Shown here: positions 7,810 through 54,700 of the stretch, piece after piece | How the letters are laid out: each line of letters opens with the position of its first letter | How positions within the stretch are numbered: position 1 is the stretch's first letter | IMG/VR virus record: IMGVR_UViG_3300027863_000003 | Strand: one strand, 5' to 3' | Source: an uncultured virus (IMG/VR IMGVR_UViG_3300027863_000003) | Lineage: Duplodnaviria > Heunggongvirae > Uroviricota > Caudoviricetes | DNA: 64,000 nucleotides | Translations under genes and position numbers: made by a program | Notes under the pieces: generated by a model | Seen by the model: only the letters and a program-made list of their open reading frames with translations | The model's database searches: none | Told to the model about the DNA's origin: nothing

Positions 7810-7982
7810 TCACCATCATCATCAACAAAGCCCAGGCCATTGCAAAATTCGCAGATTTTGTTGGTCTTGATGTTATACCCTGTACCATTGCATTTCTGGC
7901 AATCACCACCTGCACGGCGGCGTTTTTGATGGTAGTTCTTCGGGTTTTTCGGATTATGATGGGATTGGGTCGTCTTGTTCAT
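7806..7982 (-). CDS. small protein with DnaJ-type zinc finger
   Basis: CQKCNGTG...CEFCNGLG; start uncertain. Confidence 0.6.
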   Translation of the reverse strand: MNKTTQSHHNPKNPKNYHQKRRRAGGDCQKCNGTGYNIKTNKICEFCNGLGFVDDDGD

Positions 7983-8196
7983 TTGAATCAAAGCGAGTTT
8001 CGGATTTAAGTCTCCAGATTTGAATGCCATCAGTATCGCGGACAAGGGCGACATTGGCACCATTCAAGGTCAAAAGGGCGTTCTCAAGGTATTTCCTTTC
8101 GATGCCCCTTTTGACATTGTACCCAACTGTAATTGGGACAAAGCCGGCTTGTTCAGCGGCCTCTTTGGTCATGATTTCGTCTGGCAGAATTAACAT
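7954..8196 (-). CDS. hypothetical protein
   Basis: 80-aa ORF coupled to its neighbours. Confidence 0.6.
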   Translation of the reverse strand: MLILPDEIMTKEAAEQAGFVPITVGYNVKRGIERKYLENALLTLNGANVALVRDTDGIQIWRLKSETRFDSNEQDDPIPS

Positions 8197-21558: not shown

Positions 21559-21806
21559 TTCGGGCAACGCGCCGTTTTCCTGAATGTTGCCAGTGCGTTC
21601 AGGGGTGTTTCCGGCGCGTTGCCTATTTCTTTTTCTTGCGTAACTTGCTCAAAATGAGCGCAAGTCGCGCCCGCCGTCCTGTTACTCCAGAATCGTGCTG
21701 GTGCGCCTGTGCAAAAGCCATTGTGCTCATGCCGGCACGTTGAGCGGCCTGTTTCAGCGCGCCCTTCCTCTTGATTGCATTTTGAATCCAATTTGCCATA
21801 TATCAT
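21507..21806 (-). CDS. small Cys-containing hypothetical protein
   Basis: ATGA overlap with the terminase stop; CRH...C...CAHF. Confidence 0.45.
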   Translation of the reverse strand: MIYGKLDSKCNQEEGRAETGRSTCRHEHNGFCTGAPARFWSNRTAGATCAHFEQVTQEKEIGNAPETPLNALATFRKTARCPNHLRAWHSASAAARLIT

Positions 21807-23446
21807 CCCATATTTGTTACTATTATACTACCACTCGCAGGGTTTTTGCCAACTCGAATTTGCCTTACTGAAGTCATCATCTCGTTCCAGGCTTCCATGC
21901 AAATGGCGTAGGACAAGGCGTCGAATGAATGTTTGAGAGGAGATGCCTTGTCAATTTTGCCGGCCCTGGTTCGTCGAAAGCTTTCAAACATTTCGATTAG
22001 ATGCTGGCAACGCGGGCCGGAAATAAAAAGCCTGTCCTGATGCAACAGCCGCGTGATGAAATCAACACGGGATTCAATATCGCCCTTCTGGCATTTTTGA
22101 AGAACAATGCGGCCATTTGAAAACCGGTAAATCTCCTTGGACTCATACGAATCGGCAATGTTTTTGTAATCGAATGCCGATGTATCAGACCAATGACGCC
22201 ACAAAGCTTTCCGGCCCAACTGTTGCTCCCAGAAATCCATGATTTCCATGATTTCCTCGGTTATTTCCTTCAGGGACAATTCCTGATTGATGGAAACGAA
22301 TTCATCCAAAACCTTGAACGCCACCTCAATCCGGGGCTTGCCATTCTCAATTTGGTCAGGGTATTCAATCTGGATTTTCTCAATCGGCCCGATAACAGCG
22401 TGGTTGCGCACGCTGCCAATATCCCAGCCCATGATGAAAGTTGTGGTGTTTTCTTCCGGCAACATGATTGTATCTTCCAACTCTCTATCAGGCTTGGCGA
22501 AATCAACTGATTTGCCGCCGATAATATGGACGGTTGGTTTCCAGACTTTGGCAAAGATGGCTTCTGAAGTGGCGCGCACCCATTGGCCCAAGTAGAAACG
22601 ACGGTACAAATCGGGATTATGCGCGTACTTGGCCTGTTGCGCGGCTTTCTGTTCATCCGAGATAAATGCATTATCGCCGACATGAATTTCGTGTACGGAC
22701 AATTCTTTCTGGAGATTCCGAAGGTTCGCCAGCATTTTAGTCCGCGCAACTCCCTGAATATCTTTCAGGTTCAAATACTCCTCATCCTCAGGCTCAAGGT
22801 GGTCAAGGTTAAGTTTCCTGAAATAATACCACAACTTGTAAATCCACGAATCTTCGCCTTCATCGGCGGGATTGGTGTCAGAAATGAATTTGTGTTGTTC
22901 AGGAGTCAAATGCATACAACGCAGGCATTCCTGAAGAACGTCGAATGTATGCCGGCGTTTGAAGTTTGAAAGCTCGGTCATCCAGATGAGTGAAAAACGG
23001 CGGTTACGGTAACGTTCGACTTCTGATTCATCTTTAAGCGAATCCAGATACATGCGCGAAATACCGCCTTGCTCGCCGAGTTCGGGAAAGTATTGGTTTG
23101 TTACCTCGAAATAATACCTGTGACTTACAGGCTCCATTTTAACTGGCCCGCGCCTCACGTCCTTGTAATAAAATTCCATGCCGAAATCGGCTTCAAACCA
23201 CTGGGGTAAAATGGTGTTAATCAAATCCGACCATGCGCCTTCATTGAGGTTGTCGCCGATTGACCGGCCAATCATGACACCGCGTGCTCCCGGCGTCTTC
23301 CAAAGATGCCAGGCAACGGCGTGCAAACACGCAACAGTTTTGCCGGAATACCGTGGCCCGCTGACAAGGACGTAACGTTTTGGGTCAGTGATAACGGCCA
23401 TCTGTTTTGGAAATACATTTGGCACCCATGCTTTTTTCTCTTCCAT
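21803..23446 (-). CDS. terL: terminase large subunit
   Basis: FPKQ adenine-binding motif, SGPRYSGKT Walker A, LIWMTE Walker B, DTNP, GWDIG and H-FDALSY nuclease motifs. Confidence 0.9.
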   Translation of the reverse strand: MEEKKAWVPNVFPKQMAVITDPKRYVLVSGPRYSGKTVACLHAVAWHLWKTPGARGVMIGRSIGDNLNEGAWSDLINTILPQWFEADFGMEFYYKDVRRGPVKMEPVSHRYYFEVTNQYFPELGEQGGISRMYLDSLKDESEVERYRNRRFSLIWMTELSNFKRRHTFDVLQECLRCMHLTPEQHKFISDTNPADEGEDSWIYKLWYYFRKLNLDHLEPEDEEYLNLKDIQGVARTKMLANLRNLQKELSVHEIHVGDNAFISDEQKAAQQAKYAHNPDLYRRFYLGQWVRATSEAIFAKVWKPTVHIIGGKSVDFAKPDRELEDTIMLPEENTTTFIMGWDIGSVRNHAVIGPIEKIQIEYPDQIENGKPRIEVAFKVLDEFVSINQELSLKEITEEIMEIMDFWEQQLGRKALWRHWSDTSAFDYKNIADSYESKEIYRFSNGRIVLQKCQKGDIESRVDFITRLLHQDRLFISGPRCQHLIEMFESFRRTRAGKIDKASPLKHSFDALSYAICMEAWNEMMTSVRQIRVGKNPASGSIIVTNMG

Positions 23447-23493: not shown

Positions 23494-23889
23494 ATGATTG
23501 AGGTGTATATGAAAGAAACGAATGACGAATTGGATTTGAGTTACACACCGCCCAGCGGCCTTGTTTTTAATGAGGAAATGGAGCCAAGGAAAAAGAAAAA
23601 ATCAGAGCCATATTACCCGCGTTTGGATTTGCATTTCGATGCAGCCGACAATTTCGTGAAGAAATTTGGCGAACCCAAGTTGGGTGAAGTGATTGAAATG
23701 ACAATCAAGGCAAGGTGCACGGAAGTCAGCAGGCGCAAATTAAGAGGCCAATCCAATACCGATAGCCAAATCTGTTTTGATGTTCTTTCAATAGTCGGTG
23801 ATAGTGTCGAAGAGGCATCGGAAGAGACCGAAACAAAGGAAGAAGAGGAAGAGGCAAAGGAAAAGGAATCCAATGGCGAAAAATACTAG
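23494..23889 (+). CDS. acidic hypothetical protein
   Basis: 131-aa ORF, first gene of the rightward structural block. Confidence 0.65.
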   Translation: MIEVYMKETNDELDLSYTPPSGLVFNEEMEPRKKKKSEPYYPRLDLHFDAADNFVKKFGEPKLGEVIEMTIKARCTEVSRRKLRGQSNTDSQICFDVLSIVGDSVEEASEETETKEEEEEAKEKESNGEKY

Positions 23890-26311
23890 TTCAAAAGAGA
23901 TAGGCGCAAGTTTCGTTCAAGCCATTGGTGATGCGCTTGGTATCACCAGAAAGGAGCCTACTGGCGGCAAGCGCGCCTACAAATCAATCACCAGCGATAA
24001 GCTGAAGCAAATCTTCACCAAGGACAGGGAGCAACTTGAAGGCAAGCAAAAGGAGTTTTACGACCTCATTGTTGACCGGATTGCCCAGGCGCGAATGGAT
24101 AGCCTGAAGGATTGGCGGGTTTACGGAGCCATAGATGAAGCATGGAATGTTCCATTCAGCCAAATCACGCCAACTATAATCCGCAAAATCATATCGTCAG
24201 CCAAAAATCCTGAGGACGTCCGGCAGCAATTGAAAATATGGGGATTATCAGAAGAAACTCTCTTCACCATCACCGTGAATGATAAAAAAGAAAAGGAATA
24301 CATCCTGAACACGGACACTTTTTTCAGGGTTTTCGTTCCGATTGTAAAGGCGTATGTCACGGCGCGTGCAGGCAAGATTTTCAATGATTTGGATAATGAC
24401 CCGTTCTTTGTTTACCAACCCGTTCACACAACTGAAGCATTTGAATTGATTGGCGAGATTCTGACCAACTTGATTGGCCGCCAGATGGTTGAAAATTGCG
24501 GCCTCAAGGCGGTTGTTAAATCGGCTATTCTGCACGCCATCAAATACGGGTGGTGCATCACGTTCCCCGCTGAAGCATGGTATTACGAGGAAGATTTTGA
24601 TGACGAAGGCAAAACCTACACCAAGAAAGAAGGATTACGCTACAACATCCCGCACCCAACAAGATGTGCTTTCGACAAAACCTATCGTCCGGCAACAATC
24701 AATTCTGATACAGGCTGTGAGTGGGCTTGTTATTGGGACATCATGAAGTATGGCAGCATTACAAGGGAGCCATACTACAACACTGACAAGGTAACGTACG
24801 GGAAAAACTGGTTCGACCCGCAGATAAGTCACGGGTATTTTCAGGAGATGTATCCCTGCGTGATTTCGCCACCCGATTTTGTCGGCGGCTGGACTAACAA
24901 TCGGCAAATTGAATCTCAGCGATACACGACAAACGAAAAGGACAAGGCGGTTTTCGTGAGCAATTTGTTCATGAAAGTTATCCCCAAGGATTGGGGGCTT
25001 GCTGATGTTTCAACACCCGTTTGGATTAGGTTTGTTGTTGCCAATGACGACACAGTAATTTGGGCTGAACCATTACCGTATTGCCCGTTGGTCTATTGGA
25101 GTGGCGATTCTGATGATGGCCTTTCGTTGAACCCGTCCTTTGCGCTTGAATGTTTGCCCTGGCAGGATTTGGTGGGGAACATTCTGATGCAGCACATAAT
25201 CACCATTCGGCAAAACCTGATGAAGGTAATCCGGTACGATGTCCGGCAGGTTTCAGAATCACAAATCCGCGAAATAGAAGCCAAACACAAGGATGCAACA
25301 GCCTGCATTTGGTTTCCGTATGATTCGATGCGCCAGCAGGCGGAGGGGCTTAATCCGGCGGAGATGTTCCAGCCAATCAATTTTCAATACCAAGACACCA
25401 CCCAATTGATTTCAATTCTCAACACCGTTTTCAACATCATGGAGCGCGCCCTGAACATGAGCGCCCAGGAACTGGGAACAACTGCGGGGCATATTCAAAC
25501 GGCGGAGGAGGTTCGGATTATCAACCAAAACACAAGCGGGCGCGTTCAGTACATCGAAACTTTCATTTACGACGCCATAGCGGCCATGAAACGGCAGCTT
25601 TATGAGGCATCCCTTGAATTCATGGACGAAGAATTCGCCGCGGAAGTGAATGCCGTCCCGTTGCCCAAGCTCGATATGTTGAGGGAAGCGTTGGGTTTCA
25701 AATTCACATGGCCTCCCTACAGGGGGAAGATTGTGGTTAGCGGCGATAAACGGAAATTGTCTGTTGGCGGTTTCCTGTCGTCCCGCGAAGGCAATACGCG
25801 GCTGGCCAGTCCGCAAACTGCGCAGGTTATGCTTCAAACTATTCAAGCGGTTGTTGGCCAGCCTGAGCTTGCTCAGAAGATTGGCGTTGAATGGTTTGTT
25901 GCTATGTTCAATCGCATAGCCCGCATGATGGGGGCGCCTGACGATTTTGAGATTAAAATTTCGCCTGAAGCCGGCACGTTGGCGCAAATGCAGATGTTGG
26001 CGGGGCAACTCCAGCAGATGTCCCAGCAAATTGCCCAGGGCGCCGCGCAAATGGCGGCGCAACAAACTGCCCCCGCCATTCAACAGCAATCAGCCGCCAT
26101 TAGCCAGATAGCCGCCAAGGTTGGTGAAATAGAAAAGGCGCTGGGTGCTTTGGCCCAACAGAACAATCAGATTGACCAAGCGCAAGCCGAGCAAATCAAT
26201 CAAATTGCGCAGGCGGTCAAAAACCTTGGCACCATAATCACCGCGGCATCCAATGCCCCGGCCAGTCCGCCTGAGGCGCCCATGGTTCAAATGCCGATGC
26301 CGCCTCAATGA
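23873..26311 (+). CDS. portal protein
   Basis: ~810 aa, next to the terminase; QTAEEV motif and Gln-rich C-terminal coiled coil typical of podovirus portals. Confidence 0.75.
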   Translation: MAKNTSSKEIGASFVQAIGDALGITRKEPTGGKRAYKSITSDKLKQIFTKDREQLEGKQKEFYDLIVDRIAQARMDSLKDWRVYGAIDEAWNVPFSQITPTIIRKIISSAKNPEDVRQQLKIWGLSEETLFTITVNDKKEKEYILNTDTFFRVFVPIVKAYVTARAGKIFNDLDNDPFFVYQPVHTTEAFELIGEILTNLIGRQMVENCGLKAVVKSAILHAIKYGWCITFPAEAWYYEEDFDDEGKTYTKKEGLRYNIPHPTRCAFDKTYRPATINSDTGCEWACYWDIMKYGSITREPYYNTDKVTYGKNWFDPQISHGYFQEMYPCVISPPDFVGGWTNNRQIESQRYTTNEKDKAVFVSNLFMKVIPKDWGLADVSTPVWIRFVVANDDTVIWAEPLPYCPLVYWSGDSDDGLSLNPSFALECLPWQDLVGNILMQHIITIRQNLMKVIRYDVRQVSESQIREIEAKHKDATACIWFPYDSMRQQAEGLNPAEMFQPINFQYQDTTQLISILNTVFNIMERALNMSAQELGTTAGHIQTAEEVRIINQNTSGRVQYIETFIYDAIAAMKRQLYEASLEFMDEEFAAEVNAVPLPKLDMLREALGFKFTWPPYRGKIVVSGDKRKLSVGGFLSSREGNTRLASPQTAQVMLQTIQAVVGQPELAQKIGVEWFVAMFNRIARMMGAPDDFEIKISPEAGTLAQMQMLAGQLQQMSQQIAQGAAQMAAQQTAPAIQQQSAAISQIAAKVGEIEKALGALAQQNNQIDQAQAEQINQIAQAVKNLGTIITAASNAPASPPEAPMVQMPMPPQ

Positions 26312-28231: not shown

Positions 28232-29941
28232 ATGCCAGCACAAAGCGATATAACAAATATTTTTCAGGCGTGCATACCAGCACTGACGACCGACATTGCC
28301 CGCGCAAGCAGTGTAACAACGTGCAATGCAATTGTACCTTCGCCCACCGATTTGGACGATATGTTCCTGAGTTCGGATGGGAAATATCGCATCATGGGCG
28401 CGTTGTTCATGCATCAACTTGAATTGAACGCCTGCCAGGCGCAGCAAACCCCGTTGACCAAGTTTCTTTTGGCCAACAAAGTGGACTTGTCGAAACGGAT
28501 AAGCACCGAAATCATGAGCAACGGGCTTATTCGCATTCGCCCATACATTTTGGGCCGGCGCAAAGGCCCCATCAACAACAATTACTGGGAGGGGGCAGGT
28601 GGGCATGGTGTGCAGGTTAGCGGCGCCGATTACTGGGACATAAACGTTTCCAGCCGCACAGGCATACCGGTGGACACCCGCTGGTTCAATGTTGGCGAGC
28701 GTGTCTGGACTGAGTCTGTCGGCGACGATGGCAGTTCACTTGTGCGGGCGGCGTGGACAGTTGTTGATTCAACTGTGAATTCCGGCACTCAAACCATCCG
28801 GTTGGCTTTGACTGCCGGGCCTTCCAATTTGCCGGCTTCACGCAAGGTTTCAGTATCGAGTCATACATGGACAAATGGGCCGGTGAACGCCATTGTCTAT
28901 CGTGGTACAGCCAACGTATCCGATTTTGAGAGCTGGTGTGCTCAGCCGCCTGGCTTGATTAGCCACAGCGAGCAACCGTTCTGGGTTGAAACTGTTCGTG
29001 ATGCTCTGGCGATTGACGAGCAATACGAGGAATGGTTGGGGTTGGTTCTGGCCAATAACCCGCTGTATGCGAATTACTTCCATCTGCCTGTAGTCGAGTA
29101 TAACCGGCAGGCTGGTGAAGATTTCTACAGGCGGTTTGTCAATACCATGTTCTTCAACCAGCCGTTGCCGAATCAGGACATCAACACCGTCAGCAGCCTG
29201 CAGCAAATCACCACTGCGGCAATTGACGGCAGCCGTTGCGTTGGTTACAAGGCCAACTCAATCGGTTGGTATGAGCAATGGTTGCAATGCAAGCGTGTGC
29301 GTGATTTCCAAGGGCAACGGCTCAGCATACCGAGCTTCCAGAAGATGCTCTATCGGTTGCTGCGTATCCGCAACGATACCGGCAACAAGAGCAACGAGGT
29401 TGACGTGTTCATGCCGTCGAACTATGCGCTCCTGTTCCAGCAGGCCCTCATCAATTACTATGAGGCCAAGAGCAAGAGCCTGCTGCGGATGAACATTGAC
29501 CTGAGCAGTGGGGAGCAGAAATCGCCGTTTGGCTTCACGTTCAAACGGTTCTATCTGGATTACCCGAACTGTTACCTCAACATCATCACCGACAGGTTCT
29601 TTGACGATTATCGGGATGAATGCGAGGCCCGCGCCGCGGCGACCGGCAACGCGGCTTGGAAAAACTTCGGCAACAGGATTTGGATTATTGACTGGAGCAA
29701 GAATTACACCGGCATTCTGGGCAGCAACAGAGTTGTCCACAAGACCGGTGATTTGCAAACGCTTGCTGCGGTTGATAATTCATATCGCTGCGTGATGCGT
29801 GTCCCGACCAAGACAACGACTTTGATGTCCACAACGCACACGCAAATAGCCGAGTGCCCGGCTGGCGATTGGATTGGCGAGAATATTGCCGACGAAGTAC
29901 CTGACCACACTCAGGAAGCCGGCGATTACGACGACAACTAA
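28232..29941 (+). CDS. major capsid protein (HK97-like, with insertion domain)
   Basis: Position after the scaffold, 569 aa; C-terminus (THTQIAECPAGDWIGENI) resembles HK97-fold ends. Confidence 0.7.
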   Translation: MPAQSDITNIFQACIPALTTDIARASSVTTCNAIVPSPTDLDDMFLSSDGKYRIMGALFMHQLELNACQAQQTPLTKFLLANKVDLSKRISTEIMSNGLIRIRPYILGRRKGPINNNYWEGAGGHGVQVSGADYWDINVSSRTGIPVDTRWFNVGERVWTESVGDDGSSLVRAAWTVVDSTVNSGTQTIRLALTAGPSNLPASRKVSVSSHTWTNGPVNAIVYRGTANVSDFESWCAQPPGLISHSEQPFWVETVRDALAIDEQYEEWLGLVLANNPLYANYFHLPVVEYNRQAGEDFYRRFVNTMFFNQPLPNQDINTVSSLQQITTAAIDGSRCVGYKANSIGWYEQWLQCKRVRDFQGQRLSIPSFQKMLYRLLRIRNDTGNKSNEVDVFMPSNYALLFQQALINYYEAKSKSLLRMNIDLSSGEQKSPFGFTFKRFYLDYPNCYLNIITDRFFDDYRDECEARAAATGNAAWKNFGNRIWIIDWSKNYTGILGSNRVVHKTGDLQTLAAVDNSYRCVMRVPTKTTTLMSTTHTQIAECPAGDWIGENIADEVPDHTQEAGDYDDN

Positions 29942-29961: not shown

Positions 29962-30444
29962 ATGAAGAAAATCGCAATTGCAATTGGATTGGCTGCCAGC
30001 GTACTGATTTTGTGCGCTGCTACTTGGACGGGGCCTAGTATTTCTGTACCTGGCCCCGACAACTATGGTTACAAGAACTTTGGCAGCGCCTATCTGCCAA
30101 GCTCAGTTGGGGCGAGCCAGCAATCAAATGTTGTTGGTGCTGCATTTGCGGCGCCACGAAGCAGCCCGCTGGGGGTGGTGTGCCGGTTGAAGATGGCCGC
30201 AGCGACCAATGTAAGCTTGACGCTCAAGTTTGATGTGTCAGCAGACAATGTTTACTGGACGTCGAACCAGCCAATCAGCCTAGCGGTTTCTACAAGCGAC
30301 AAGACAACCAATGTCCAGAACCTTTTCGCCACGCTGCCATTTACTAATTTCGGTGGGGCCAAGTATTTGGCTTTGACCGCCATTTCAAACGCGAGCGGGG
30401 CGACAGTCTATCCGTCCAATGTTTGCGTTGGCTACTGGCCTTAA
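29962..30444 (+). CDS. signal-peptide-bearing beta-rich protein (decoration-like)
   Basis: MKKIAIAIGLAASVLILCAA signal; immediately after the capsid gene. Confidence 0.65.
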   Translation: MKKIAIAIGLAASVLILCAATWTGPSISVPGPDNYGYKNFGSAYLPSSVGASQQSNVVGAAFAAPRSSPLGVVCRLKMAAATNVSLTLKFDVSADNVYWTSNQPISLAVSTSDKTTNVQNLFATLPFTNFGGAKYLALTAISNASGATVYPSNVCVGYWP

Positions 30445-30473: not shown

Positions 30474-30947
30474 ATGCGATACTTTAAAAAATCGAATATC
30501 AAAACAACCATATTTCATGAAGGCAATCAAATTGTCTTTACCCCAATACCTGATGAATACGGGATACTCGAACTGGCCGATGACGCGCCTGAACTGAAAA
30601 CGATTGAGATTTGCTTGAAACGTCATATTGGCGGCGTTGTCGAGATTTCAAAAGAAATCTACGATGAATTGAAAAAAAAACAACTGACAAGCCCGCCCAG
30701 CCAATCAATCCCGCAATTGCGAATAGTGGATTTAAGTCCGCATTGGGGGCCACCGCCAAAACCGCAACCGCCGCAACAACAAGTGATGTTATCCCCTGCC
30801 CAGCCTGCGGTGGCACAGGCAAGTGCAGAAGCGGCTGTGGTAAAGGCCGCCCCTGCAACCTCTGCGGGGGTACTGGCTGGCGAAGGCGGTGAGCCAATCA
30901 GCCGCGGCGTAAAAGTCAAAGTTGGCCGGCCTAAAAAGGCCACATAA
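30474..30947 (+). CDS. hypothetical protein with internal A9 slippery run; zero-frame product ends in GRPKK
   Basis: Start MRYFKK; AAAAAAAAA at 30672-30680. Confidence 0.7.
   Translation: MRYFKKSNIKTTIFHEGNQIVFTPIPDEYGILELADDAPELKTIEICLKRHIGGVVEISKEIYDELKKKQLTSPPSQSIPQLRIVDLSPHWGPPPKPQPPQQQVMLSPAQPAVAQASAEAAVVKAAPATSAGVLAGEGGEPISRGVKVKVGRPKKAT
30668..30892 (+). other. -1 frame segment encoding a DnaJ-type zinc finger (probable programmed frameshift product)
   Basis: Hand translation ...VIPCPACGGTGKCRSGCGKGRPCNLCGGTGWRRR*; bounded by TGA at 30665 and containing no ATG. Confidence 0.7.
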
Positions 30948-31009: not shown

Positions 31010-32932
31010 ATGTCAACAATATTTGCTGATTTAAGGAAGGCAGTAATTGCCAAGGCCTTCCCCGACGGGGAAGCGGAAAACCTCACCAAACAGCACCGCG
31101 ACGATTTGGTTGCCGGCTTGATTGATATTCAACAATTCGATTCCTTTTATCAGCAGCGGCATATTGATGTTTTCCCATTCTGTTCAACCTTGTTTTATTG
31201 CGGGGCCACTGTTCTGGAAAAGCCGCGCGGCAAGGTGATTCGCATTTATACTCTGCCAGAAGAAACGGATTGTTGCCCCGTGGTTTATGAATGGGAAGAT
31301 AATTCGCATATATTTTGGGACTGGCTTGATGCCAGCCGGCCATTGTGGAAAAAGATTGTTCAGCCGGGTGCCCCCCCATTGCCGATGGGATTTCATCATG
31401 CCGACCCAATAACTGACAAAGGCTGCCGGTATAATTGGGGCCGGTACTGCCTTGATTCAGATTACATTTTCATCGGGCATAGAATTGAATCAACCGAGCG
31501 CGTTGTAATTGAGTGGTCAGGGATTAAGCGGCGGTTTGCAGACAACGACATCATCAAACTTTCATCCATCCACGATGAACAAAACGATAAAGATGAAGGC
31601 GTTGAATTGGTTGATGTGTTGGCTGTTTATGTAAAAGCGCAGCATTTGATGCTTTATGAGGACGACATGCAGGCCGGCGCGGCGATGATGCAGCTTTATA
31701 CCAAGAAACGGGCGGATTTGATTTATCGCCATAAGATGGAGATGCGGCCTGAGGCGCGGCCTGTTTATGTAAATTTCAAGCCGCGGCCAAATGTTTTCGG
31801 CATATTCCCGCCAGGCTCAGACTACGAAGTTTGCAGAACTGCGCCGCAGGTGAAGACTGATGCAACGTGGACGTATGCCTTTGTGGCCGACATAGATGGC
31901 GAAAAGGAAGAGGCAGCAAGTGTGGCTAACCTGATTGCGGGCTGGGGGCCGGCCTTTGTGATTGGTGGCGGTGATATTTGGAATAACAAGGGCGACAGCA
32001 CAAAAACGCAATTGGATATAACCTTTGGCCGGCTTTACCGGATGTTTCTTTATCCCTACCGCGGTTCCGCCGGCCCGCAGGTTGCCCAATACCAACGGTT
32101 TTATTCTGCAATCGGCAATCATGACCGTGACCCGGCTGTTCGTTTTGATTTGGTGCGCGAATTTCTCAACATGCCGCCATCTACAATCGGCGGTATAAGC
32201 CAGCCCAACAAGGGGTACTACGATATTTTGCTTGGCAATGTGCATTGGTTTTTCATTGATTCAGGTTTCATGAATGATGGTAGTACGATTGCCCAGGAGG
32301 ATGGGATTACAGAGACAAGCCCCCAGGGTAGGTACATGCTGGATTTGATACGCAAGAGCAATGCTCCTTGGAAAATTGTCGTGCTACATCATCCGCCATA
32401 CGCAAGCATCGGCGACGGGCATAATGACGATTACGCGGCGTTGCGTTGGGATTTCAAGGGGGCTGGCGTCAATCTGGTTCTGAGCGGGCACAAACATTGG
32501 TACGAACGCTGTGTTATAGATGGATTGCCTTATTTGGTTTGTGGGTTGGGGGGTGCCCCCATACTTTCACCAAGCGAATCAGAACTCGCTACAGGCAGCC
32601 AGGTACGCTACAACGCAAAACATGGGGCCCTTTTGATTGCCGCCACGGCCACACAACTTCGTGTTTTCTTTCTGAACATAGATTCAGAACTGATTGACGG
32701 CATACAATTTGACAAGGAAGCCTGCACTTGGTCTTCTGGCGTGGCGCCTGTTACAGTGAGCCAGGGCGGTTCATTTACGCCACCGGCGCCCAATGCACAG
32801 GGGCAAATTTGGATTGGGACAAATACGTATTTCGACAGTGCTGGGAACTTGTGGATTAAGACACCGGCTGGGTTCAAGAAATTCACCGGAATATCAGTTG
32901 ACGGCGTAATCGCCCCAACATTGACGGATTGA
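31010..32932 (+). CDS. virion-module protein: adaptor-like N-terminus fused to a metallophosphoesterase
   Basis: FVAD, GGGD, GNHD, HHPPY and SGHKHWYER motifs in the C-terminal half; adaptor call is positional. Confidence 0.75.
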   Translation: MSTIFADLRKAVIAKAFPDGEAENLTKQHRDDLVAGLIDIQQFDSFYQQRHIDVFPFCSTLFYCGATVLEKPRGKVIRIYTLPEETDCCPVVYEWEDNSHIFWDWLDASRPLWKKIVQPGAPPLPMGFHHADPITDKGCRYNWGRYCLDSDYIFIGHRIESTERVVIEWSGIKRRFADNDIIKLSSIHDEQNDKDEGVELVDVLAVYVKAQHLMLYEDDMQAGAAMMQLYTKKRADLIYRHKMEMRPEARPVYVNFKPRPNVFGIFPPGSDYEVCRTAPQVKTDATWTYAFVADIDGEKEEAASVANLIAGWGPAFVIGGGDIWNNKGDSTKTQLDITFGRLYRMFLYPYRGSAGPQVAQYQRFYSAIGNHDRDPAVRFDLVREFLNMPPSTIGGISQPNKGYYDILLGNVHWFFIDSGFMNDGSTIAQEDGITETSPQGRYMLDLIRKSNAPWKIVVLHHPPYASIGDGHNDDYAALRWDFKGAGVNLVLSGHKHWYERCVIDGLPYLVCGLGGAPILSPSESELATGSQVRYNAKHGALLIAATATQLRVFFLNIDSELIDGIQFDKEACTWSSGVAPVTVSQGGSFTPPAPNAQGQIWIGTNTYFDSAGNLWIKTPAGFKKFTGISVDGVIAPTLTD

Positions 32933-48778: not shown

Positions 48779-48793
48779 TTGAAATCAGGGCGT

Positions 48794-51700
48794 ATGGCAG
48801 ACTTCTACATTTCTGATGATGAAGACCAGCAAGGTGTGCAGCAAGATGTAACGCCTCAGGCTGAACCCAAGACTGATTTGGACAACCTGTACAAGCAGAT
48901 TATTCAAAAAGATGAAATCAGCCCTGAGGAAGCCGCGTTCATTGAGGCGAAAAAGTTCCCTGATGGCAGGCCTAGGGAGGCTATTCTGACTGCCGCGCCG
49001 GAGAAGCCGTTGTATAAAAAAATCCTTGAATTTCCGCAAAGAGTCGCGCCGGGACTTTTCGGCAGACCGGAAGGAGAATGGATAGGGGACCCCGATGATG
49101 AGGAAAACTACCGGAAATTGAATGAGGGAGCGATAGCCGCATTATCTCATGGGCTTATTAACAGGCTTGTTCCAGATGTAAAAGCAGAGCAGGTTCAGAA
49201 ATTTGCTGATAGATTGGCAAATGCGGTGCAAGGTAAATTTGGGGAGCCGCAACCACGCAAGAAACCAAGTGATGCGGCAGGCTATACGGCTGGTGCAATC
49301 AATCTTATCAAAAATCTGCTCGATATTTTTACAAGCCCAGCGGGTTTTGTTGGTGGTTTGGGCGGTATTACGCGGCAGGCGCCAAGAGTAATCGCTGGGT
49401 TATTTGCGCATTCACTTTTGAAAGACCTACCAGAATCCGCCCAAGCGGCTGGTTACGCATCAGTTTCTGGAACGCCACAAGAGAAAGTGGAACGGCTGGG
49501 CGGATTGGCGGCTAACTTGCTTTTTGCGGGGACGTCTGCTTTTCATACTGCTGCCCCTAAAAAACCGGGGCAGGCTGGAGGGGCAAAGTCGTGGATGGAG
49601 CAGATATTGCCGGGGATGACGGATGAAGAATTTAAAGCTTATGATGTAATGCGTGACCGAGCAAGAGAATATGCGCTTGCTAAATGGCGGCTTGAGAATG
49701 GCAAAGCAGAACCCGGTGATTTCGGAATCGTTTCTGATTTTGAGAATGCTGCCGAATTTAAAGATTTTGAAAAACCGCTCAATAAGGCATTTTTTACATT
49801 TTCAAACTTGCCGCCCAAAGTTGTTGGGGCAATGCCACCAGAAATGTTTCGTTTGTGGCGTTGGGTAACTTATAAAGCTTTTTCCAATGCAGGAAGTCCA
49901 GGATTCAAAAAAATATATGCATCTCGCCTTCATGCAGGTTTGCTTGAGCAAGGCGACACCAAAACCGCTGGATTGCTTGAAAATGAACTTCGACAAAGTG
50001 AATCCCCGGAATTGAGGGAGCACGCAAAACAGTTAACGAAGGCGAGATATGATTATTATGAAAAACAAAAACAGGCGCGTCAGGATATAGAGGCTAGCCT
50101 CAGGGAGAGAGGCGTAACTTCTCCAGGAATGCCTCAGCCAGAACGGCCACGAATTAGAATTGTGGCTGAAGGAGCCGGCGAACCTAAAACTGAGCCATCC
50201 CAAGGGCCAATTGATACTTCGTTGAAAGCTGGGGAACAAAAGCCCACCGAGCCTGCTCAAAAGCCTGCCATCCCGCCTGAAGAACAACCGCCGCCACCGC
50301 CAGCTCAAACAGTTTTTGGGAAGATGGGGGCGTTAGAATTATTTGATGAGTACAAGAAGGTGCTCAGTCAAAACGATTTCGCATTGGCGGAAGAGGCTGA
50401 AGCCCGAATGAGAGAAATAGCGGAGCAAAGCCCAGACGCAGAGGAGCGCCAGCTTGCCCAGAAAATGTTGGAACCAATGAGGCAAATGCGCGAGGCGCAG
50501 GAAACGCTTTACCGGGTTCAAAAACAACAAGCCGCCACAAGGCCGGCGCAGGAGAATAGGCCTGCTGAACAGGCACAACCCGTTGAACAGGCGCCCGCTG
50601 TTGAACAAAGACCGCAAGCGCCGCCGCCGCCCGATTATAACAACATGGGCGTTCTGGAATTATTCGATGAACACAGAAAAGCTACAAATGCGGGGAATTT
50701 CCAATTAGCAAATGAACTTGAAGAGCGGATGAGGAGAAGGGTAGAAGAAGCTCCAGACGAAACGGCCCGCGAAAATGCCCAAAGGCTATTGAATCACATG
50801 ATACAATTGCGTCAGGGGCATGAAGAGCTGGCGAAATTAAAAGGAAATCTCGCTCAACAAAGACAGCCAGCGACTGAGGCGCAGAAGCCAGCACCTGAAG
50901 CGCAGCCGGCAGGACAACAACAGCAAGAACAACGGCCATCCCATGACTTATGGAGTTTCCTGCCTGAAGAACCAGAAATTGTTGATGCTGCTTATGTGGC
51001 TTCTTTGGAATATCTCTATGATAGAGCCATCGAACAAGGCGACCATTTACTCGCCGATGAGATTGAACGGCGCCTCGATGATTCATTGATTAGAATTCGT
51101 GATAAAGAGGTCATGGGGGTTGCCGTTGACCAGTTGAGAAGAATGCGAAAGGCGCGTGCGGCAAGGCAGCAAGAAGCTGAAAAAGGGCTGCAAGAAAAGC
51201 AGCAAGAAGCCGAAAAAAACAAAAAGCGTGAGACATTAAGAAACCTTTTGAATAACGAAACAAAGGTAGATGAGTCTTTTATTCTAACTCTCTCTATCCT
51301 TCATGATGAGGCGCTTAAAGACGGCCTTTTCGATGTTGCCAAGGAAATTGAGGAGCGGATGGCACAGGCGCGTGGGCAAGTTGAAGGCAACGATAACCTG
51401 CAATCGCTGATAGATGCACACTTACAGGAGCTAATAAAAAAGCGTGAAAGTAAACAAAATCAGGCGCAACAGCCATTAACAACGAATATACAAACTGGCG
51501 CTGAACCGGCAGCGAATGCCCCAGCCACTCCCGAAAAACCGTTGCCGACAAATTTGGCCACGGGTGCCAAGCCAGAAGAGCAGAAAAGCCCACCGGCATC
51601 GGTTATGGCACCTGAAACGCCAGCAACCAAACCGCCCGAACAAACCGCCGCGCCAAAAGCTGGGCCGCCGAAACCGCCGGAACCGTTGGCGCCAGCAGCA

Positions 51701-54700
51701 GAAAAACCAGTCAAACCGCGTCCCCCGGCCCCGACTACTGGCGTGACGCCATTGCCAACACCAATAACAACCAGCGAACAAAAAAAGGAAAAGCCGGAGA
51801 GCGAGAAACCCGCACCAGTTTTGCCAACAAACTTGGGAGCGGGCCAAAAATCTGAAGAGAAAAAAGTTGCCCCTGAAAAACAAGCGCCGACGGCAGTTTC
51901 GGCACCAAAGCCGGTCAAGATAAGAGCCACGCTTTGGGCTGACGGCTCAGTCGAGACACAAGATGAAGAGGTCACGGGCTTTAAATTTGCAAGAGATGAA
52001 AACAATAGGATATTCGTAAATAAGTATGGCATAGCTGAAATCACAAATGGTGAAGATTCTTACAGAATTTTTATTAAAAAATTGTCGCCAGAAGCCAAGC
52101 GTGAATTAGGATGGGACGAGGCAAGCGTTGTTTATGAGCCACCAATATCGCCAGAAGTAGAAAAGCTTTTGGATGAATTAAGGGATATTCATGCAAGTAA
52201 AGAATATGAACAGGCGTCGCAGAAAATACTGGCGCAGAAACGCTCGCATTTAACTAAAGATGAAGAGCGGGCATTCAACCGGTCACGTGAAATATGGAAT
52301 GAAATTAGTAAATTGCCCCCAGAATTAGCAGCGGAACTGCCAGACGATGCTTTTAGAGAGTGGCAGGATTCAAGGCTCGATAACTTTTCAATTCAAAGCG
52401 CGAAAGAATTACACAGGGCATTTCTTTTGCGAGGCGAGCCAATTGCCGCTGAAAATATAGAAAATAAATTGGCCGAGACTCTCGTTAATGTGCATAGCAA
52501 GCATCCTGATGACCGTGCAGAAGCGAAAAGACATAATAAAGAAACCAAAGCCGTGATAGACGAATTATGGCGGGCACGGGAAGAATACAAGAAGAACAAA
52601 AAAGCGACTCCACCGGCACCAGCGCCAGCAGAGCCGGCAAAGCCGATTGAATTGAAGCCAACGCCGCCAATTCCGACAGGGGCCAAGGTTGAAGTTGTTG
52701 GCAAAGGCGATGACAAATATCCTGGTGTTTATTCAATTTTGCCGCTTTCAGAATTGCAGGCATCGCATACGGAGACCTTCTCGCCAAATGAAAAGTATCC
52801 TTTGAGCAATACCCGCCAGTATCATTTGGAAAGCCAGAAAGCTGAGCGGGATAAAGTGAACAAGGGCGCCTACGAACCCATACCAGACCTGCTGGTTGAG
52901 CCTTCAGTTTCGGCTTCAGTCGGCCCGCCAGTTGTTGCTTGGGACAGAGGCACTGGTCAATGGGTTGTTCTGGGCGGGAATGGCCGGACTTTGATGTATA
53001 AGATTATGCCCGAAGAAAAACGGGCGCAAGTCCATGAATATGCGAAACAAAGCGCCAAGAAACTTGGGTTGCCGGAACCGAAAACTCCCGACGACGTCAT
53101 CGTCCGAGTAATTGACCCAATTGATACATCAACACGAGAAGGGCGCGAGGCGGCCAATCGAATAGTTGACAGCCTTAACCGCTCTGACATGTTGAGCCGC
53201 AGCCCGTTCAACATGGGGAAAGATGATGCGCGCAATATTCCCGATGATGATGCTCTTCAACTTTTGGATGAGCTAACTGAAGCCGCGCCTAATCAGACAA
53301 TCAATATTTACAGGAGGTTTGTCGAACGAATGATAGGCTCTGGGAAGATTGAACAAGCTTCGCGCGCCTCAATTCTCGACAATGATGTTGATGTAAGAAC
53401 TTATGTTGAAAGCTTTCTAGCCGAGAAAGCATTTCCGAACTCAACAATCCCGCGGCTCATGGCGGACAGCAACACGCCGGCCACAATTAGGGGGTTGATG
53501 AAGGTTGCAATGCCAACCGTATTGCGGTTGCGCTCACAAAAGACTGCATTTGGCGAAAAACTCGCCAATGTTATAACAGGCGCTTTGGATAAAGTCAGCC
53601 TTGCTTCTGATGATATTTCAAAGATTTCAAGCGCCCTTGAAATGGCATCCGGCCAATCTGAATTGGGCGAATCAGAGGCGAGTAAGGCGGGGCGCGCCCT
53701 CATTTATCTGCTCCAGAAATATGCCAATGTAAAAACCGATAAGAAAACAAAGAGCCAGGCCGCCCTGTCGGTATGGGGCAAGATATTCAATTACCTCGAC
53801 CAAGCCTTGGCGAATCAAAAAAAACAAGGTGGGGGCGAAAATCTGTTTGGCACAGTGGAAGATGATGCCTTGGTGTTCAGGCGGACATTGCAGGGCATAA
53901 TGACCGAAAAGGAATATAAGAGCTTCGGTTTGAAGCCTGTTTCTGAGGACTCGCAAACACCGCCTAGATTCGGCTATAACATCCCGGCACTGGAGCGTGC
54001 TATTAGTGAGACTACCGGCAAATTACCCACCAGTATAACCATGGGCGCGACGAAAGTCGAAAAGCCCACCAAACCTGCGGTAAAACCGAAAGGCAAAGCC
54101 AAGGTTGCGCCCGTGGAAGAAAAACCGCCTACCACTATCAGAGCCGGTGAAGAGGAAGTAAAACCCACAGAGCCGCCTGCCAAACCGCGAATAACGTCTG
54201 GGCAGGAAGCTAAAAAAAAAGAAACGGTTCCAATAAAGCCTGAGGAAGAAAAGCCTGCGCCGGAACCGACACTGGACGAACTCAAGGCAGAGCGGGACGC
54301 CTTGGAAAGACGCCTGAAGAAATATGGTGAATTACCGCCCCGTGACCAAGCGCGGCTTGAAGAAGTCAAAATGGCCATTGAAAAAGCGGAATTGGGCCAG
54401 GAATACCTGCCGCAAACCAAACAGGCCATTATTCCTGACGAAGAGACACTCAAGAAACAGCAGCGTTCTTTTGTTGAGAAAAAGGCTAAAGAAGGCACAT
54501 TAAAGCCCCAAGGTGAACAGGAAAACTTGGAGGAGGGGCGAAAGCAACCTGAATTATTGCCTACTGGGCAGGGGGATATTTTCAGTGGGCAACCATACAG
54601 GCCGACTCCCAAGCCGGCAGAAAGTCGCCCCGCCGCGGAGATGCCCAAGCCGCAGGTAGCACAACCCCAGCCAGCGGTTGCAAAGCCGGCTGAACAGCCG

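What the first reader, a model, noticed from the sequence alone, without database searches (positions are those of the whole stretch)
30474..30947. Hidden DnaJ-type zinc finger in the -1 frame behind an A9 slippery run
Seen: the gene reads ...YDEL-AAA-AAA-AAA-CAA (A9 at 30672-30680). The -1 frame has a TGA at 30665, just before the run, and no ATG. It then reads TTDKPAQPINPAIANSGFKSALGATAKTATAATTSDVIPCPACGGTGKCRSGCGKGRPCNLCGGTGWRRR* (stop 30890-30892). Two exact CxxCGGTG repeats are the DnaJ-type zinc-finger signature and are very unlikely by chance. The zero frame is also open and ends in an AT-hook-like KVGRPKK. Inference: this is a dual-coding gene in the head module making two proteins with one N-terminal domain and alternative C-termini, by -1 ribosomal frameshifting or transcriptional slippage. 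This is not the usual tail-chaperone frameshift context, and the ORF track misses it.
Basis: partly seen in the sequence, partly recalled or inferred. Interest (0 to 1): 0.8.

Follow-up and report, generated by a model that had tools for sequence, protein, structure and literature searches.

The report
Conserved A9 slip site, hidden cysteine tail
A small phage capsid-module gene carries a run of nine A's that is conserved across a large family of uncultivated phages and opens a second reading frame ending in a cysteine pair, so one gene most likely makes two proteins with different tails.

Summary
The A9 run is at 30672-30680. The 0 frame is open to 30947. The -1 frame is open from the TGA at 30665 to the TGA at 30890 and carries six Cys, including two exact CxxCGGTG motifs.

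Comparison with relatives shows this is not an accident of one genome. The gene belongs to an unnamed family (738 cluster representatives) that sits just downstream of an SU10/crAss-type major capsid gene. All 7 lineages found without asking for an A-run have exactly A9. In 143 of 145 family proteins the site can encode nine or more A's, in all three codon phases.

In 24 of 24 lineages with DNA, the -1 frame behind the run stays open for 32-42 codons (69 here). It ends in a Cys pair (CC or CxxC) followed by a stop within 0-8 codons, and it almost never contains a start codon. A synonymous-codon null gives about 5% per lineage for such an ending.

The 0-frame tail is the family's ordinary tail, so both frames code. 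The window's six-Cys "finger" is an enlarged version of the family's Cys pair. It is not a DnaJ-domain member by Pfam profile.

The most likely mechanism is transcriptional slippage, because nine A's are conserved whatever the codon phase. Ribosomal -1 frameshifting is the main rival. No RNA or protein data exist.

The parts
30474..30947 (+). 0-frame gene (157 aa, P0001): N-terminal domain, disordered Pro/Ala-rich tail, basic C-end (GRPKK)
   Evidence: It belongs to a family with 738 representatives at E <= 1e-3. The tail and basic end align with P0002 and L004.
30474..30689 (+). Coding for the folded N-terminal domain (residues 1-72, three strands, helix, strand, helix), shared by both products
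   Evidence: AlphaFold2 with a 97-sequence alignment gives pLDDT 93-97 over residues 1-70 and 54-78 beyond. No clear fold relative was found.
30672..30680 (+). A9 run: the proposed slippage site at the domain/tail boundary
   Evidence: All 7 lineages found by searches that did not require the run have exactly A9. It is A9 in 23 and A10 in 2 of 25 loci tabulated. 143 of 145 family proteins can encode nine or more A's at this site.
30665..30667 (+). TGA closing the -1 frame 4 nt upstream of the run
30680..30892 (+). -1 frame tail (70 codons plus stop at 30890-30892), read after a -1 shift or from an A10 transcript
   Evidence: It has no ATG; the only alternative start is TTG at 30743.
30797..30877 (+). 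Six-Cys segment in the -1 frame: CxxCGGTG, CxxxCGKG, CxxCGGTG. The last pair corresponds to the family's terminal Cys pair
   Evidence: Two or more CxxCxGxG occurred in 0 of 20000 synonymous shuffles. Weak hits to phrog_4046 (7.8e-4) and phrog_21790 (5.7e-3).
30685..30687 (+). TGA in the +1 frame: an A8 transcript would give the N-domain alone (70 aa)
30638..30668 (+). Hairpin in the would-be nascent RNA, ending 4 nt 5' of the run (core AGATTTC / GAAATCT, loop AAAA)
   Evidence: -11.8 kcal/mol, z = -3.9 against shuffles. An upstream hairpin with z < -1.5 is seen in only 6 of 24 lineages, so it is not a family feature.
28232..29941 (+). Upstream major capsid protein gene (SU10/crAss type), the conserved left neighbour of the family
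   Evidence: ESM Atlas features score 0.98 to clusters carrying Crass_capsid/SU10_MCP; structure TM 0.56 to an SU10_MCP cluster. A homologue lies directly upstream in 20 of 24 family loci.
31010..32932 (+). Downstream conserved neighbour (its N-terminal ~170 aa are shared across family loci; here fused to a Metallophos domain)
   Evidence: homologue downstream in 19 of 24 loci.

Best explanation
This is a dual-coding capsid-module gene with a programmed slip site. Standard decoding gives a 157-aa protein: a folded 70-residue N-domain, a disordered tail, and a basic C-terminal motif. At the A9 run, RNA polymerase most likely slips on the T9 template and adds one A to a fraction of transcripts. 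Ribosomes on those A10 transcripts read the same N-domain and then the -1 frame. That gives a shorter tail ending in cysteines just before a stop.

In the family, this tail is 32-42 residues long, basic, and ends in one Cys pair (CC or CxxC, usually followed by Gly). In this hot-spring phage it has grown to 70 residues with three Cys pairs, two of them CxxCGGTG, so it probably forms its own zinc knuckle.

The slip would fix the ratio of two isoforms of a capsid-associated accessory protein. I infer that the Cys pair links subunits or binds the capsid through a metal or a disulfide.

Shown: conservation of the run, of the open -1 frame, of its terminal Cys pair and stop, and of the 0-frame tail. 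Inferred: that the -1 frame is expressed, that the slip is transcriptional, and what the cysteines do.

My odds: real dual coding through the run 0.85. Given that, transcriptional slippage about 0.7 and ribosomal about 0.3 (both may contribute). Zinc binding by the window's six-Cys segment about 0.5.
For: (1) The run is conserved as nucleotides, not as amino acids.
- Two searches did not require an A-run. One used the N-terminal pattern (68 loci, 5 family by HMM, 4 reaching the site). The other used GGVxEI + 24 nt + AARAAR (62 candidates, 6 strong family loci).
- Together with the window they give 7 distinct lineages, and 7 of 7 have exactly A9, in genomes of 49-64% GC.
- The 53 non-family controls have runs of 2-8.

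(2) Protein-level test on the best 150 of the 738 representatives. The site was located in 145, and 143 can encode nine or more A's.
- With two Lys, the next residue is Asn in 69 of 77 sites, always after a residue whose codon can end in A.
- In 6 of 77 it is Ser or Arg, always after Glu or Gln (NAA AAA AAA AGN).
- There are 2 exceptions.
- With three Lys, any residue follows.
This pattern fits a need for nine A's in any phase. Ribosomal slippage would need only seven.

(3) The -1 frame. In 24 of 24 lineages it is open for 32-42 codons after the run (69 here). It ends in CC or CxxC with a stop 0-8 codons later.
- Permuting synonymous 0-frame codons gives that ending with mean probability 0.054 (range 0.004-0.175) per lineage.
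- Each Cys codon overlies a 0-frame Ala or Val codon. The 0-frame codon before the first Cys ends in T while encoding 8 different amino acids.
- ATG occurs in the -1 ORF in 1 of 24 lineages, and no ATG/GTG/TTG at all in 17 of 24.

(4) The 0 frame is also real. Its linker motifs and basic end align with P0002 and L004 and resemble the tails of the 150 relatives.

(5) No downstream RNA structure of the kind that stimulates -1 frameshifting was found: mean z +0.23, and 0 of 24 below -1.5.

(6) A9 is a proven slippage length. Passages of PMC3711429 report 40% frameshifted product from a 9-A cassette in E. coli, against 10% for 7 A and 63% for 11 A. Passages of PMC5009743 describe Thermus thermophilus dnaX making two products about 1:1 by transcriptional slippage.

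(7) Conserved synteny with the capsid gene.
Against: - There is no RNA or protein evidence. No RNA run holds this DNA. The DNA check used assembled contigs that may be the source data, not raw reads.
- 17 of the 24 lineages used for the -1 frame analysis were found with a pattern that required nine or more A's. They say nothing about how often the run is absent.
- Only 150 of the 738 family representatives were inspected, and DNA was available for about 24 lineages.
- The lineages are related, so 24 of 24 is not 24 independent trials.
- The -1 linker is not well conserved. In the L079/L082 pair, 31 differences in 127 nt give 26 nonsynonymous and 5 synonymous changes in the -1 frame, against 16 and 15 in the 0 frame. 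Selection on the -1 frame therefore seems limited to openness, length and the terminal Cys pair.
- Ala-rich 0-frame sequence by itself enriches Cys, Gly, Ser and Arg in the -1 frame. Six or more Cys arose in 9.5% of shuffles.
- The two extra Cys pairs are seen only in this phage. The DNA of its nearest relative, P0002, could not be obtained.
- Pfam DnaJ_CXXCXGXG does not match the peptide.
- Two of 145 family sites can encode only seven A's. That would fit a ribosomal mechanism better.
- A single-sequence fold of the -1 peptide was uninformative (pLDDT 55.9).
Confidence: 0.8

Rival explanations
1. The same two products arise, but through programmed -1 ribosomal frameshifting on the A_AAA_AAA heptamer (tRNA-Lys slippage or ribosome sliding on poly-A) rather than through RNA polymerase slippage.
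For: Every phase of an A9 run contains an X_XXY_YYZ heptamer. Conserved -1 frameshifts are the rule in phage structural modules; the tail chaperone case is described in passages of PMC5009743. Two of 145 family sites can encode only seven A's.
Against: Seven A's in the right phase would be enough, yet the family keeps nine in all three phases. The residue after Lys-Lys is constrained to codons starting AA or, after Glu/Gln, A (75 of 77 two-Lys sites). No downstream stimulatory structure was found (0 of 24 with z < -1.5). An upstream Shine-Dalgarno-like stimulator was not tested.
Confidence: 0.2
2. The -1 frame is not expressed. Its openness and cysteines are a by-product of an Ala/Pro-rich 0-frame tail, and the A-run is just Lys-Lys-Lys/Asn coding.
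For: 0-frame Ala codons (GCN) give NGC in the -1 frame, which encodes Cys, Ser, Arg or Gly. Six or more Cys and an open -1 frame each arose in about 9% of synonymous shuffles. The -1 linker evolves faster than the 0 frame in one pair.
Against: Two CxxCxGxG motifs arose in 0 of 20000 shuffles. A terminal Cys pair is present in 24 of 24 lineages against 5% expected. T is kept at the 0-frame third position under eight different amino acids. The phase-dependent residue rules at the run and A9 in genomes of 56-64% GC, including a TTA Leu codon, are not explained by amino-acid selection.
Confidence: 0.04
3. DNA-level phase variation: replication slippage switches the phage population between A9 and A10 genotypes, each making one isoform.
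For: Homopolymer tracts are classic contingency loci. Assembled contigs drop minority variants.
Against: All 25 loci tabulated keep the long tail in the 0 frame and the Cys tail in the -1 frame, including the two with A10. 0 of 150 family proteins end in a Cys pair in frame. None of the 5 short relatives found does either. Four assemblies of this phage all have A9.
Confidence: 0.04
4. Assembly or sequencing error: the true genome has A10 and one ordinary gene with an in-frame finger.
For: Homopolymers are error-prone. Raw reads could not be inspected.
Against: A9 appears in the window, three other public assemblies and Logan contigs of three runs at about 20x depth (possibly the same data). 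The 0-frame tail and its basic end are conserved in relatives. The same arrangement recurs in 24 lineages.
Confidence: 0.01
5. The -1 ORF is a separate small gene started at its own start codon (TTG 30743, 49 aa).
For: the ORF listing reports a 49-aa TTG ORF at 30743-30892.
Against: 17 of 24 lineages have no ATG, GTG or TTG anywhere in the -1 ORF, and only 1 of 24 has an ATG. The ORF always begins at or just before the run.
Confidence: 0.01

Closest known systems
Thermus thermophilus dnaX (tau/gamma by transcriptional slippage on an A-run)
   Same: Homopolymeric A-run inside a gene. RNA polymerase slippage gives a mixed mRNA population. Two proteins share the N-terminus in a set ratio, in a thermophile setting (passages of PMC5009743).
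   Different: In dnaX both alternative frames stop almost at once, so the second product is just truncated. Here the -1 frame encodes a conserved-length tail with a terminal Cys pair. The gene is a phage capsid-module gene, not a replicase.
Paramyxovirus P/V and potyvirus P3N-PIPO (polymerase stuttering into an overlapping frame)
   Same: Polymerase slippage at a conserved homopolymer gives a trans-frame protein with the same N-terminus and a new C-terminal module (abstract listing of 10.1101/2020.09.30.321489; passages of PMC5009743). I recall, from no call here, that the V-specific module is a Cys-rich zinc-binding domain.
   Different: Those are RNA viruses of eukaryotes using a viral RNA-dependent polymerase. 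This is a DNA phage, presumably using the host's multisubunit RNA polymerase. There is no sequence relationship.
Phage tail assembly chaperone G/GT -1 frameshift; head-protein frameshifts (T7 10A/10B, recalled from no call; Lactobacillus phage A2 major head protein)
   Same: Conserved recoding in a phage structural module yields two proteins with a common N-terminus at a fixed ratio (PMC5009743 passages; the A2 paper was seen only as a reference title in PMC10274946).
   Different: Those are ribosomal shifts at heptamers near the 3' end that lengthen the product. Here the shift is mid-gene at a nine-A run, the shifted product is the shorter one, and the gene is a small accessory gene next to the capsid gene, of a family with no Pfam or PHROG entry.
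DnaJ cysteine-rich domain (Pfam PF00684, CxxCxGxG repeats)
   Same: Two exact CxxCxGxG motifs and one CxxxCGxG within 27 residues.
   Different: No profile match at E <= 0.1. There are three Cys pairs rather than four. There is no J-domain or chaperone context. The family at large has only one Cys pair.
IS element transposases made by transcriptional slippage (e.g. Roseiflexus IS630)
   Same: An A-run gives access to an overlapping frame; a 5' RNA hairpin can stimulate the slip. PMC5009743 names the case. The hairpin mechanism is recalled from Penno et al. 2015, which I did not read here.
   Different: An upstream hairpin is significant in only 6 of 24 lineages. The products are structural-module proteins, not transposases.

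Membership tests
Programmed transcriptional slippage cassette | Homopolymeric A or T run of about nine or more inside the coding sequence | tested here: met
   A9 at 30672-30680. A9 in 23 and A10 in 2 of 25 loci.
Programmed transcriptional slippage cassette | Run conserved at nucleotide level among homologues, independent of codon phase | tested here: met
   7 of 7 lineages from run-blind searches have A9. Phases 0, 1 and 2 all occur. 143 of 145 proteins can encode nine or more A's, with phase-specific residue rules.
Programmed transcriptional slippage cassette | Alternative frame behind the run conserved as coding | tested here: met
   24 of 24 lineages have an open -1 frame of constrained length with a terminal Cys pair and stop; the null is about 5% per lineage.
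Programmed transcriptional slippage cassette | Transcripts heterogeneous in run length while the DNA is not | not testable with these tools
   No RNA run holds the stretch. Only assembled contigs were available.
-1 programmed ribosomal frameshift cassette | X_XXY_YYZ slippery heptamer in the 0-frame phase | tested here: met
   Any phase of A9 contains A_AAA_AAA. This is trivially met and does not discriminate.
-1 programmed ribosomal frameshift cassette | Stimulatory RNA structure a few nucleotides downstream | tested here: not met
   The 50 nt downstream fold no better than shuffles: mean z +0.23, and 0 of 24 with z < -1.5. Pseudoknots and upstream SD-like elements were not tested.
DnaJ-type zinc finger (Pfam PF00684 DnaJ_CXXCXGXG) | Match to the family profile | tested here: not met
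   No PF00684 hit at E <= 0.1 for the 74-aa -1 peptide. For comparison, the ordinary 85-aa ORF at 7806-8063 (-) hits it at 6.7e-4, below the curated cut-off.
DnaJ-type zinc finger (Pfam PF00684 DnaJ_CXXCXGXG) | Four CxxCxGxG repeats forming two zinc sites | tested here: not met
   Two exact repeats plus one CxxxCGxG, six Cys in all. Zinc binding itself is not testable here.
AT-hook (core Arg-Gly-Arg-Pro) | RGRP core flanked by basic residues | tested here: inconclusive
   The window has VGRPKK, so only GRP. RGRP occurs in 5 of 150 relatives, and a GR[PR] motif in the last 45 residues of 23 of 150. No profile test was run.
Unnamed phage family of P0001 (capsid-gene neighbour) | N-terminal ~70-aa domain with the GGVxEI motif, followed by a disordered tail; gene directly downstream of the major capsid gene | tested here: met
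   hmmsearch gives 738 representatives. The domain is modelled at pLDDT about 96. Synteny holds in 20 of 24 loci upstream and 19 of 24 downstream. There is no Pfam, PHROG or PDB sequence match.

The most novel reading that the evidence does not exclude
A whole, so far unnamed family of capsid-module genes in uncultivated SU10/crAss-type phages depends on obligatory RNA-polymerase slippage at a nine-A run. The slip makes a fixed mixture of two isoforms. One has a long basic tail, which may contact DNA or the capsid. The other has a short tail whose terminal Cys pair clasps neighbouring subunits through a shared metal ion or a disulfide. That would be a new kind of capsid-stabilising link encoded only in a hidden frame. 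In this hot-spring phage the hidden frame has been overprinted further into a self-contained zinc knuckle.
Probability: 0.25. Interest if true: 0.85.

Novelty: new variant of a known kind. Interest (0 to 1): 0.78.

Why it matters
Programmed transcriptional slippage is documented in a handful of bacterial genes, IS elements and eukaryotic RNA viruses. I found no report of it in a phage structural module. Four full-text searches turned up only ribosomal frameshifts in tail-chaperone and major-head genes.

Here a single finding in one window opens onto a family of hundreds of phage lineages. In that family, the slip site, the hidden frame, its length and its terminal Cys pair are all conserved. 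Gene callers miss the second product every time: 0 of 150 database proteins carry it.

This gives recoding researchers a large natural series for working out what makes an A-run "programmed": three codon phases, GC content from 49 to 64%, and lineages with and without an upstream hairpin. It gives phage structural biologists an unannotated virion-module protein isoform to look for in capsid maps. It also shows overprinting at work, because a one-pair Cys motif has been enlarged into a three-pair zinc-knuckle-like segment inside a tolerant disordered linker of the other frame.

Tried and rejected
- **Relatives in cultured phages.** None were found by blastn of the region or by tblastn of P0006 against INPHARED.
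- **The window's own assembly.** It is not held. G001 is the same phage.
- **The search for related loci.** With the 97-sequence alignment it failed because there was no conserved stretch. With a 12-sequence alignment it gave nothing in viral contigs and one doubtful 24-residue match in a MAG (L074), which I dropped.
- **Homologues of the -1 peptide.** None at 40-130 aa. Longer or shorter forms were not searched.
- **Pfam, PHROGs and PDB sequence searches of the family.** No match.
- **Fold searches of the N-domain.** Foldseek against PDB and BFVD gave nothing at E <= 0.001. The best VIA-align Z was 5.4, to RRM-like alpha/beta sandwiches, which is within the range of common arrangements. The Atlas search with residues 1-75 scored below 0.8.
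- **Single-sequence AlphaFold of the -1 peptide.** Mean pLDDT 55.9, so it was not used.
- **RNA evidence.** No RNA holder is listed. Run X4 (share 0.05) laid nothing on the stretch.
- **Dropped rows.** L017 is a 35-aa fragment that stops before the site. L112, L119 and L152 are weak HMM hits that match only the motif imposed by the search pattern and have other architectures. L078, L080, L095 and L102 are not family members. Near-duplicate loci were counted once (L053 with L029; L093 and L101 with L087; L094 with L083; L097 with L082; L098 with L086; L099 with L077; L100 and L157 with L064; L076, L096, L109 and L146 with the window).
- **Upstream hairpin as a family-wide stimulator.** Rejected: only 6 of 24 lineages have z < -1.5.
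Full report
**1. The observation**

The region reads as the first-stage reader described.
- The 0-frame gene starts at ATG 30474 and ends at 30945-30947 (157 aa, P0001).
- The A9 run occupies 30672-30680 as TTG AAA AAA AAA CAA.
- The -1 frame has a TGA at 30665-30667, contains no ATG, and is open to TGA at 30890-30892.
- After the run, the -1 frame encodes about 70 residues with six cysteines arranged CxxCGGTG, CxxxCGKG, CxxCGGTG.
- The +1 frame stops two codons after the run.

I held the 0-frame protein fixed and redrew synonymous codons 20000 times from the phage's own codon usage.
- The -1 frame stayed open in 1850 draws.
- It had six or more Cys in 9.5% of draws.
- It had one CxxCxGxG in 248 draws and two in none.

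An A9 run alone is unremarkable for one window: 2 were found against 7.2 expected. Long A-runs are in fact depleted here: 29 A7 runs against 61.8 expected.

**2. Context**

The window is a phage from hot-spring metagenomes. The genes in the area are:
- Large terminase at 21803-23446 (-).
- A weak portal match at 23798-26311.
- A 569-aa protein at 28232-29941. The ESM Atlas places it with SU10/crAss-type major capsid proteins (features 0.98; structure TM 0.56 to an SU10_MCP cluster).
- A 160-aa ORF.
- The gene in question.
- A 644-aa protein with a Metallophos domain.

**3. The family**

One database protein (P0002, 45% identical in the N-domain) and one IMG/VR locus (L004, 33%) gave a three-sequence profile. 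A full HMMER pass over 1.84 billion representatives found 738 proteins at E <= 1e-3 and 170 at E <= 1e-10. Most are 130-180 aa.

No family member matches Pfam, PHROGs or any PDB sequence, and none carries a source name.

AlphaFold2 with 97 sequences models residues 1-72 at pLDDT about 96 (three strands, helix, strand, helix) and the rest as disordered. Fold searches gave no convincing relative.

In family loci, a homologue of the capsid gene lies directly upstream in 20 of 24 and a homologue of the downstream gene's N-terminus in 19 of 24. The flanks held were only 700-800 nt.

**4. The 0 frame is real**

The window's 0-frame tail aligns with its relatives at two places:
- a linker motif, QLRIVDLS against QARIANLS;
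- the basic C-end, EP-x5-K-x3-GRP-x-K.

The 150 relatives inspected have the same kind of Pro/Ala-rich tail with a basic end. None of the 150 has more than three Cys, and none ends in a Cys pair.

This rules out the reading that A10 is the true genotype of an ordinary gene. So do the identical A9 in three other assemblies and in Logan contigs of three runs at about 20x depth, although those runs may be the source data.

**5. The A-run is conserved as nucleotides**

Two collection scans did not ask for an A-run.
- The N-terminal pattern scan returned 68 loci, 5 of them family by HMM. Four of these reach the site (L009, L029, L053, L064), and all four have A9.
- The scan for GGVxEI + 24 nt + AARAAR returned 62 candidates. 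The 6 strong family loci all have A9. The 53 unrelated candidates have runs of 2-8. Three weak HMM hits are not family members.

Counting near-duplicates once and adding the window gives 7 lineages, all with exactly A9, at 49-64% GC. L004 even uses TTA AAA AAA AAT in a 60% GC genome.

The protein sequences say the same thing. The site was located in 145 of 150 proteins, and 143 of these can encode nine or more A's.
- With two Lys, the next residue is Asn in 69 of 77 sites. The preceding residue is always one whose codon can end in A (Leu 57, Ile 4, Glu 3, Ala 3, Gln 2).
- In 6 of 77 the next residue is Ser or Arg, and the preceding residue is then always Glu or Gln, consistent with NAA AAA AAA AGN.
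- Two sites are exceptions (MKKS, AKKE).
- With three Lys, anything follows.

These rules describe a nine-A requirement in three codon phases, not an amino-acid preference.

**6. The -1 frame is conserved as coding**

A third scan did require nine or more A's, so it is biased on that point. It returned 33 loci, of which 29 were family members. That gave about 24 distinct lineages with DNA.

In all 24:
- the -1 frame behind the run stays open for 32-42 codons (69 in the window);
- it ends in a Cys pair, either CC followed by Gly or Ser, or CxxC;
- the pair is usually preceded by basic residues;
- a stop follows 0-8 codons later.

I permuted synonymous 0-frame codons within each tail. Such an ending then arises with mean probability 0.054 (range 0.004-0.175), yet it is observed in 24 of 24. 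The lineages share ancestry, so these are not 24 independent trials. Their 0-frame tails, however, are too diverged to align across clades.

The Cys codons (38 TGC, 10 TGT) overlie 0-frame Ala or Val codons. The 0-frame codon before the first Cys ends in T while encoding eight different amino acids (P, V, R, A, D, S, N, G).

The -1 ORF has an ATG in 1 of 24 lineages and no ATG, GTG or TTG at all in 17 of 24. It therefore cannot be an independently initiated gene.

The +1 frame is not conserved: it runs 3-90 codons.

**7. Evidence that limits the claim**

- In the L079/L082 pair, the overlap has 31 differences in 127 nt. They give 26 nonsynonymous and 5 synonymous changes in the -1 frame, against 16 and 15 in the 0 frame.
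- In L077/L099 the two frames fare alike.
- In L029/L053 the two differences are both silent in the -1 frame.

Selection on the -1 frame therefore seems to act on openness, length, basic character and the terminal Cys pair, not on the whole peptide.

The window's two extra Cys pairs are seen only in this phage, and the DNA of its nearest relative (P0002) was out of reach.

The peptide does not match Pfam DnaJ_CXXCXGXG at E <= 0.1. It has only weak PHROG hits and no homologues at 40-130 aa. Its single-sequence fold is uninformative.

**8. Mechanism**

Both alternatives give the same proteins. I favour transcriptional slippage, at about 0.7 given that the dual coding is real, for three reasons.
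- Nine A's are kept in every phase, where seven would be enough for a ribosomal heptamer.
- No downstream structure is present: mean z +0.23, and 0 of 24 lineages below -1.5.
- Nine is a length at which bacterial RNA polymerase is known to slip efficiently. Passages of PMC3711429 report 40% shifted product for 9 A's, 10% for 7 and 63% for 11. Passages of PMC5009743 describe Thermus dnaX.

The conserved frame is the one reached by adding one A. I recall that insertion is the usual direction of slippage on A-runs, but I did not check this in a paper.

The window has a strong hairpin ending 4 nt 5' of the run (z -3.9). Such hairpins are significant in only 6 of 24 lineages, so they are at most a local enhancer.

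No phage RNA polymerase was seen among the window's genes scanned. The host enzyme is therefore presumed, but the window is not the whole genome.

**9. Function**

Function is inferred only. Conserved adjacency to the capsid gene suggests a capsid-associated accessory protein. The slip would set the ratio of two forms:
- a long form whose basic end resembles an AT-hook in a minority of members (RGRP in 5 of 150);
- a short form ending in a Cys pair.

A single CxxC or CC pair cannot make a four-ligand zinc site alone. I therefore propose an inter-subunit metal clasp or a disulfide. In the window, three pairs could form a self-contained zinc knuckle.

**10. What is known**

Full-text searches were run for:
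- transcriptional slippage with bacteriophage and capsid;
- transcriptional slippage with phage and Thermus;
- slippage with phage and a nine-A string;
- programmed frameshift with phage, capsid, C-terminal extension and slippery.

They returned reviews and ribosomal cases (tail chaperones, major head proteins) but nothing on this family or on slippage in a phage head module. These searches cover open-access text only. I read passages, not whole papers.

**Verdict**

This is a new, widely conserved variant of programmed recoding, and direct expression data are still needed.

Noticed in passing
window 54212-54220 (+): This is the only other A9 run in the window. It lies in phase 0 (KKK) inside the 4976-aa ORF. 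Both alternative frames stop after 7 and 4 codons, so slippage there would give a truncated N-terminal product of about 1815 aa, as in dnaX. Conservation was not examined.
   Followed up: partly
window 48779-63709 (+): Giant 4976-aa ORF with a ddrB-like ParB domain (residues 1311-1445) and an SNF2/ResIII/DEAD helicase core (residues 2169-2654). It looks like a polyvalent virion or anti-defence protein.
   Followed up: partly
window 7806-8063 (-): Ordinary 85-aa ORF whose C-terminus carries two CxxCNGxG motifs. It hits Pfam DnaJ_CXXCXGXG at E 6.7e-4 (20.3 bits, below the 32.7 cut-off). The phage therefore also encodes a small zinc-ribbon-like protein in a normal frame.
   Followed up: partly
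window 29962-30444 (+): 160-aa ORF with a hydrophobic N-terminus, inserted between the capsid gene and the slip-site gene. In L004 the two genes are adjacent, 82 nt apart. No family match.
   Followed up: no
window 31010-32932 (+): The conserved downstream neighbour has a calcineurin-like phosphoesterase domain (residues 290-498) fused behind the N-terminal part that is shared across family loci. This is unusual for a gene in this structural position.
   Followed up: no
family loci L079, L082, L083, L085, L086, L106 and proteins such as P0026, P0040, P0098: Many members share a 0-frame motif, PWREEL, about 10-15 residues after the run. The -1 frame there reads LEGG or LAGG. Which frame drives this conservation is unresolved.
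   Followed up: no
P0156 (87 aa, ENA contig of 775 nt): A database protein that equals the +1-frame product of an L090-like gene and has a further frame change upstream. It is either a sequencing error or a genuine run-length variant.
   Followed up: no
L088 and L090: These two lineages carry A10 instead of A9 (GAA AAA AAA AAG, phase 1). Both still keep the long tail in the 0 frame and the Cys tail in the -1 frame.
   Followed up: partly
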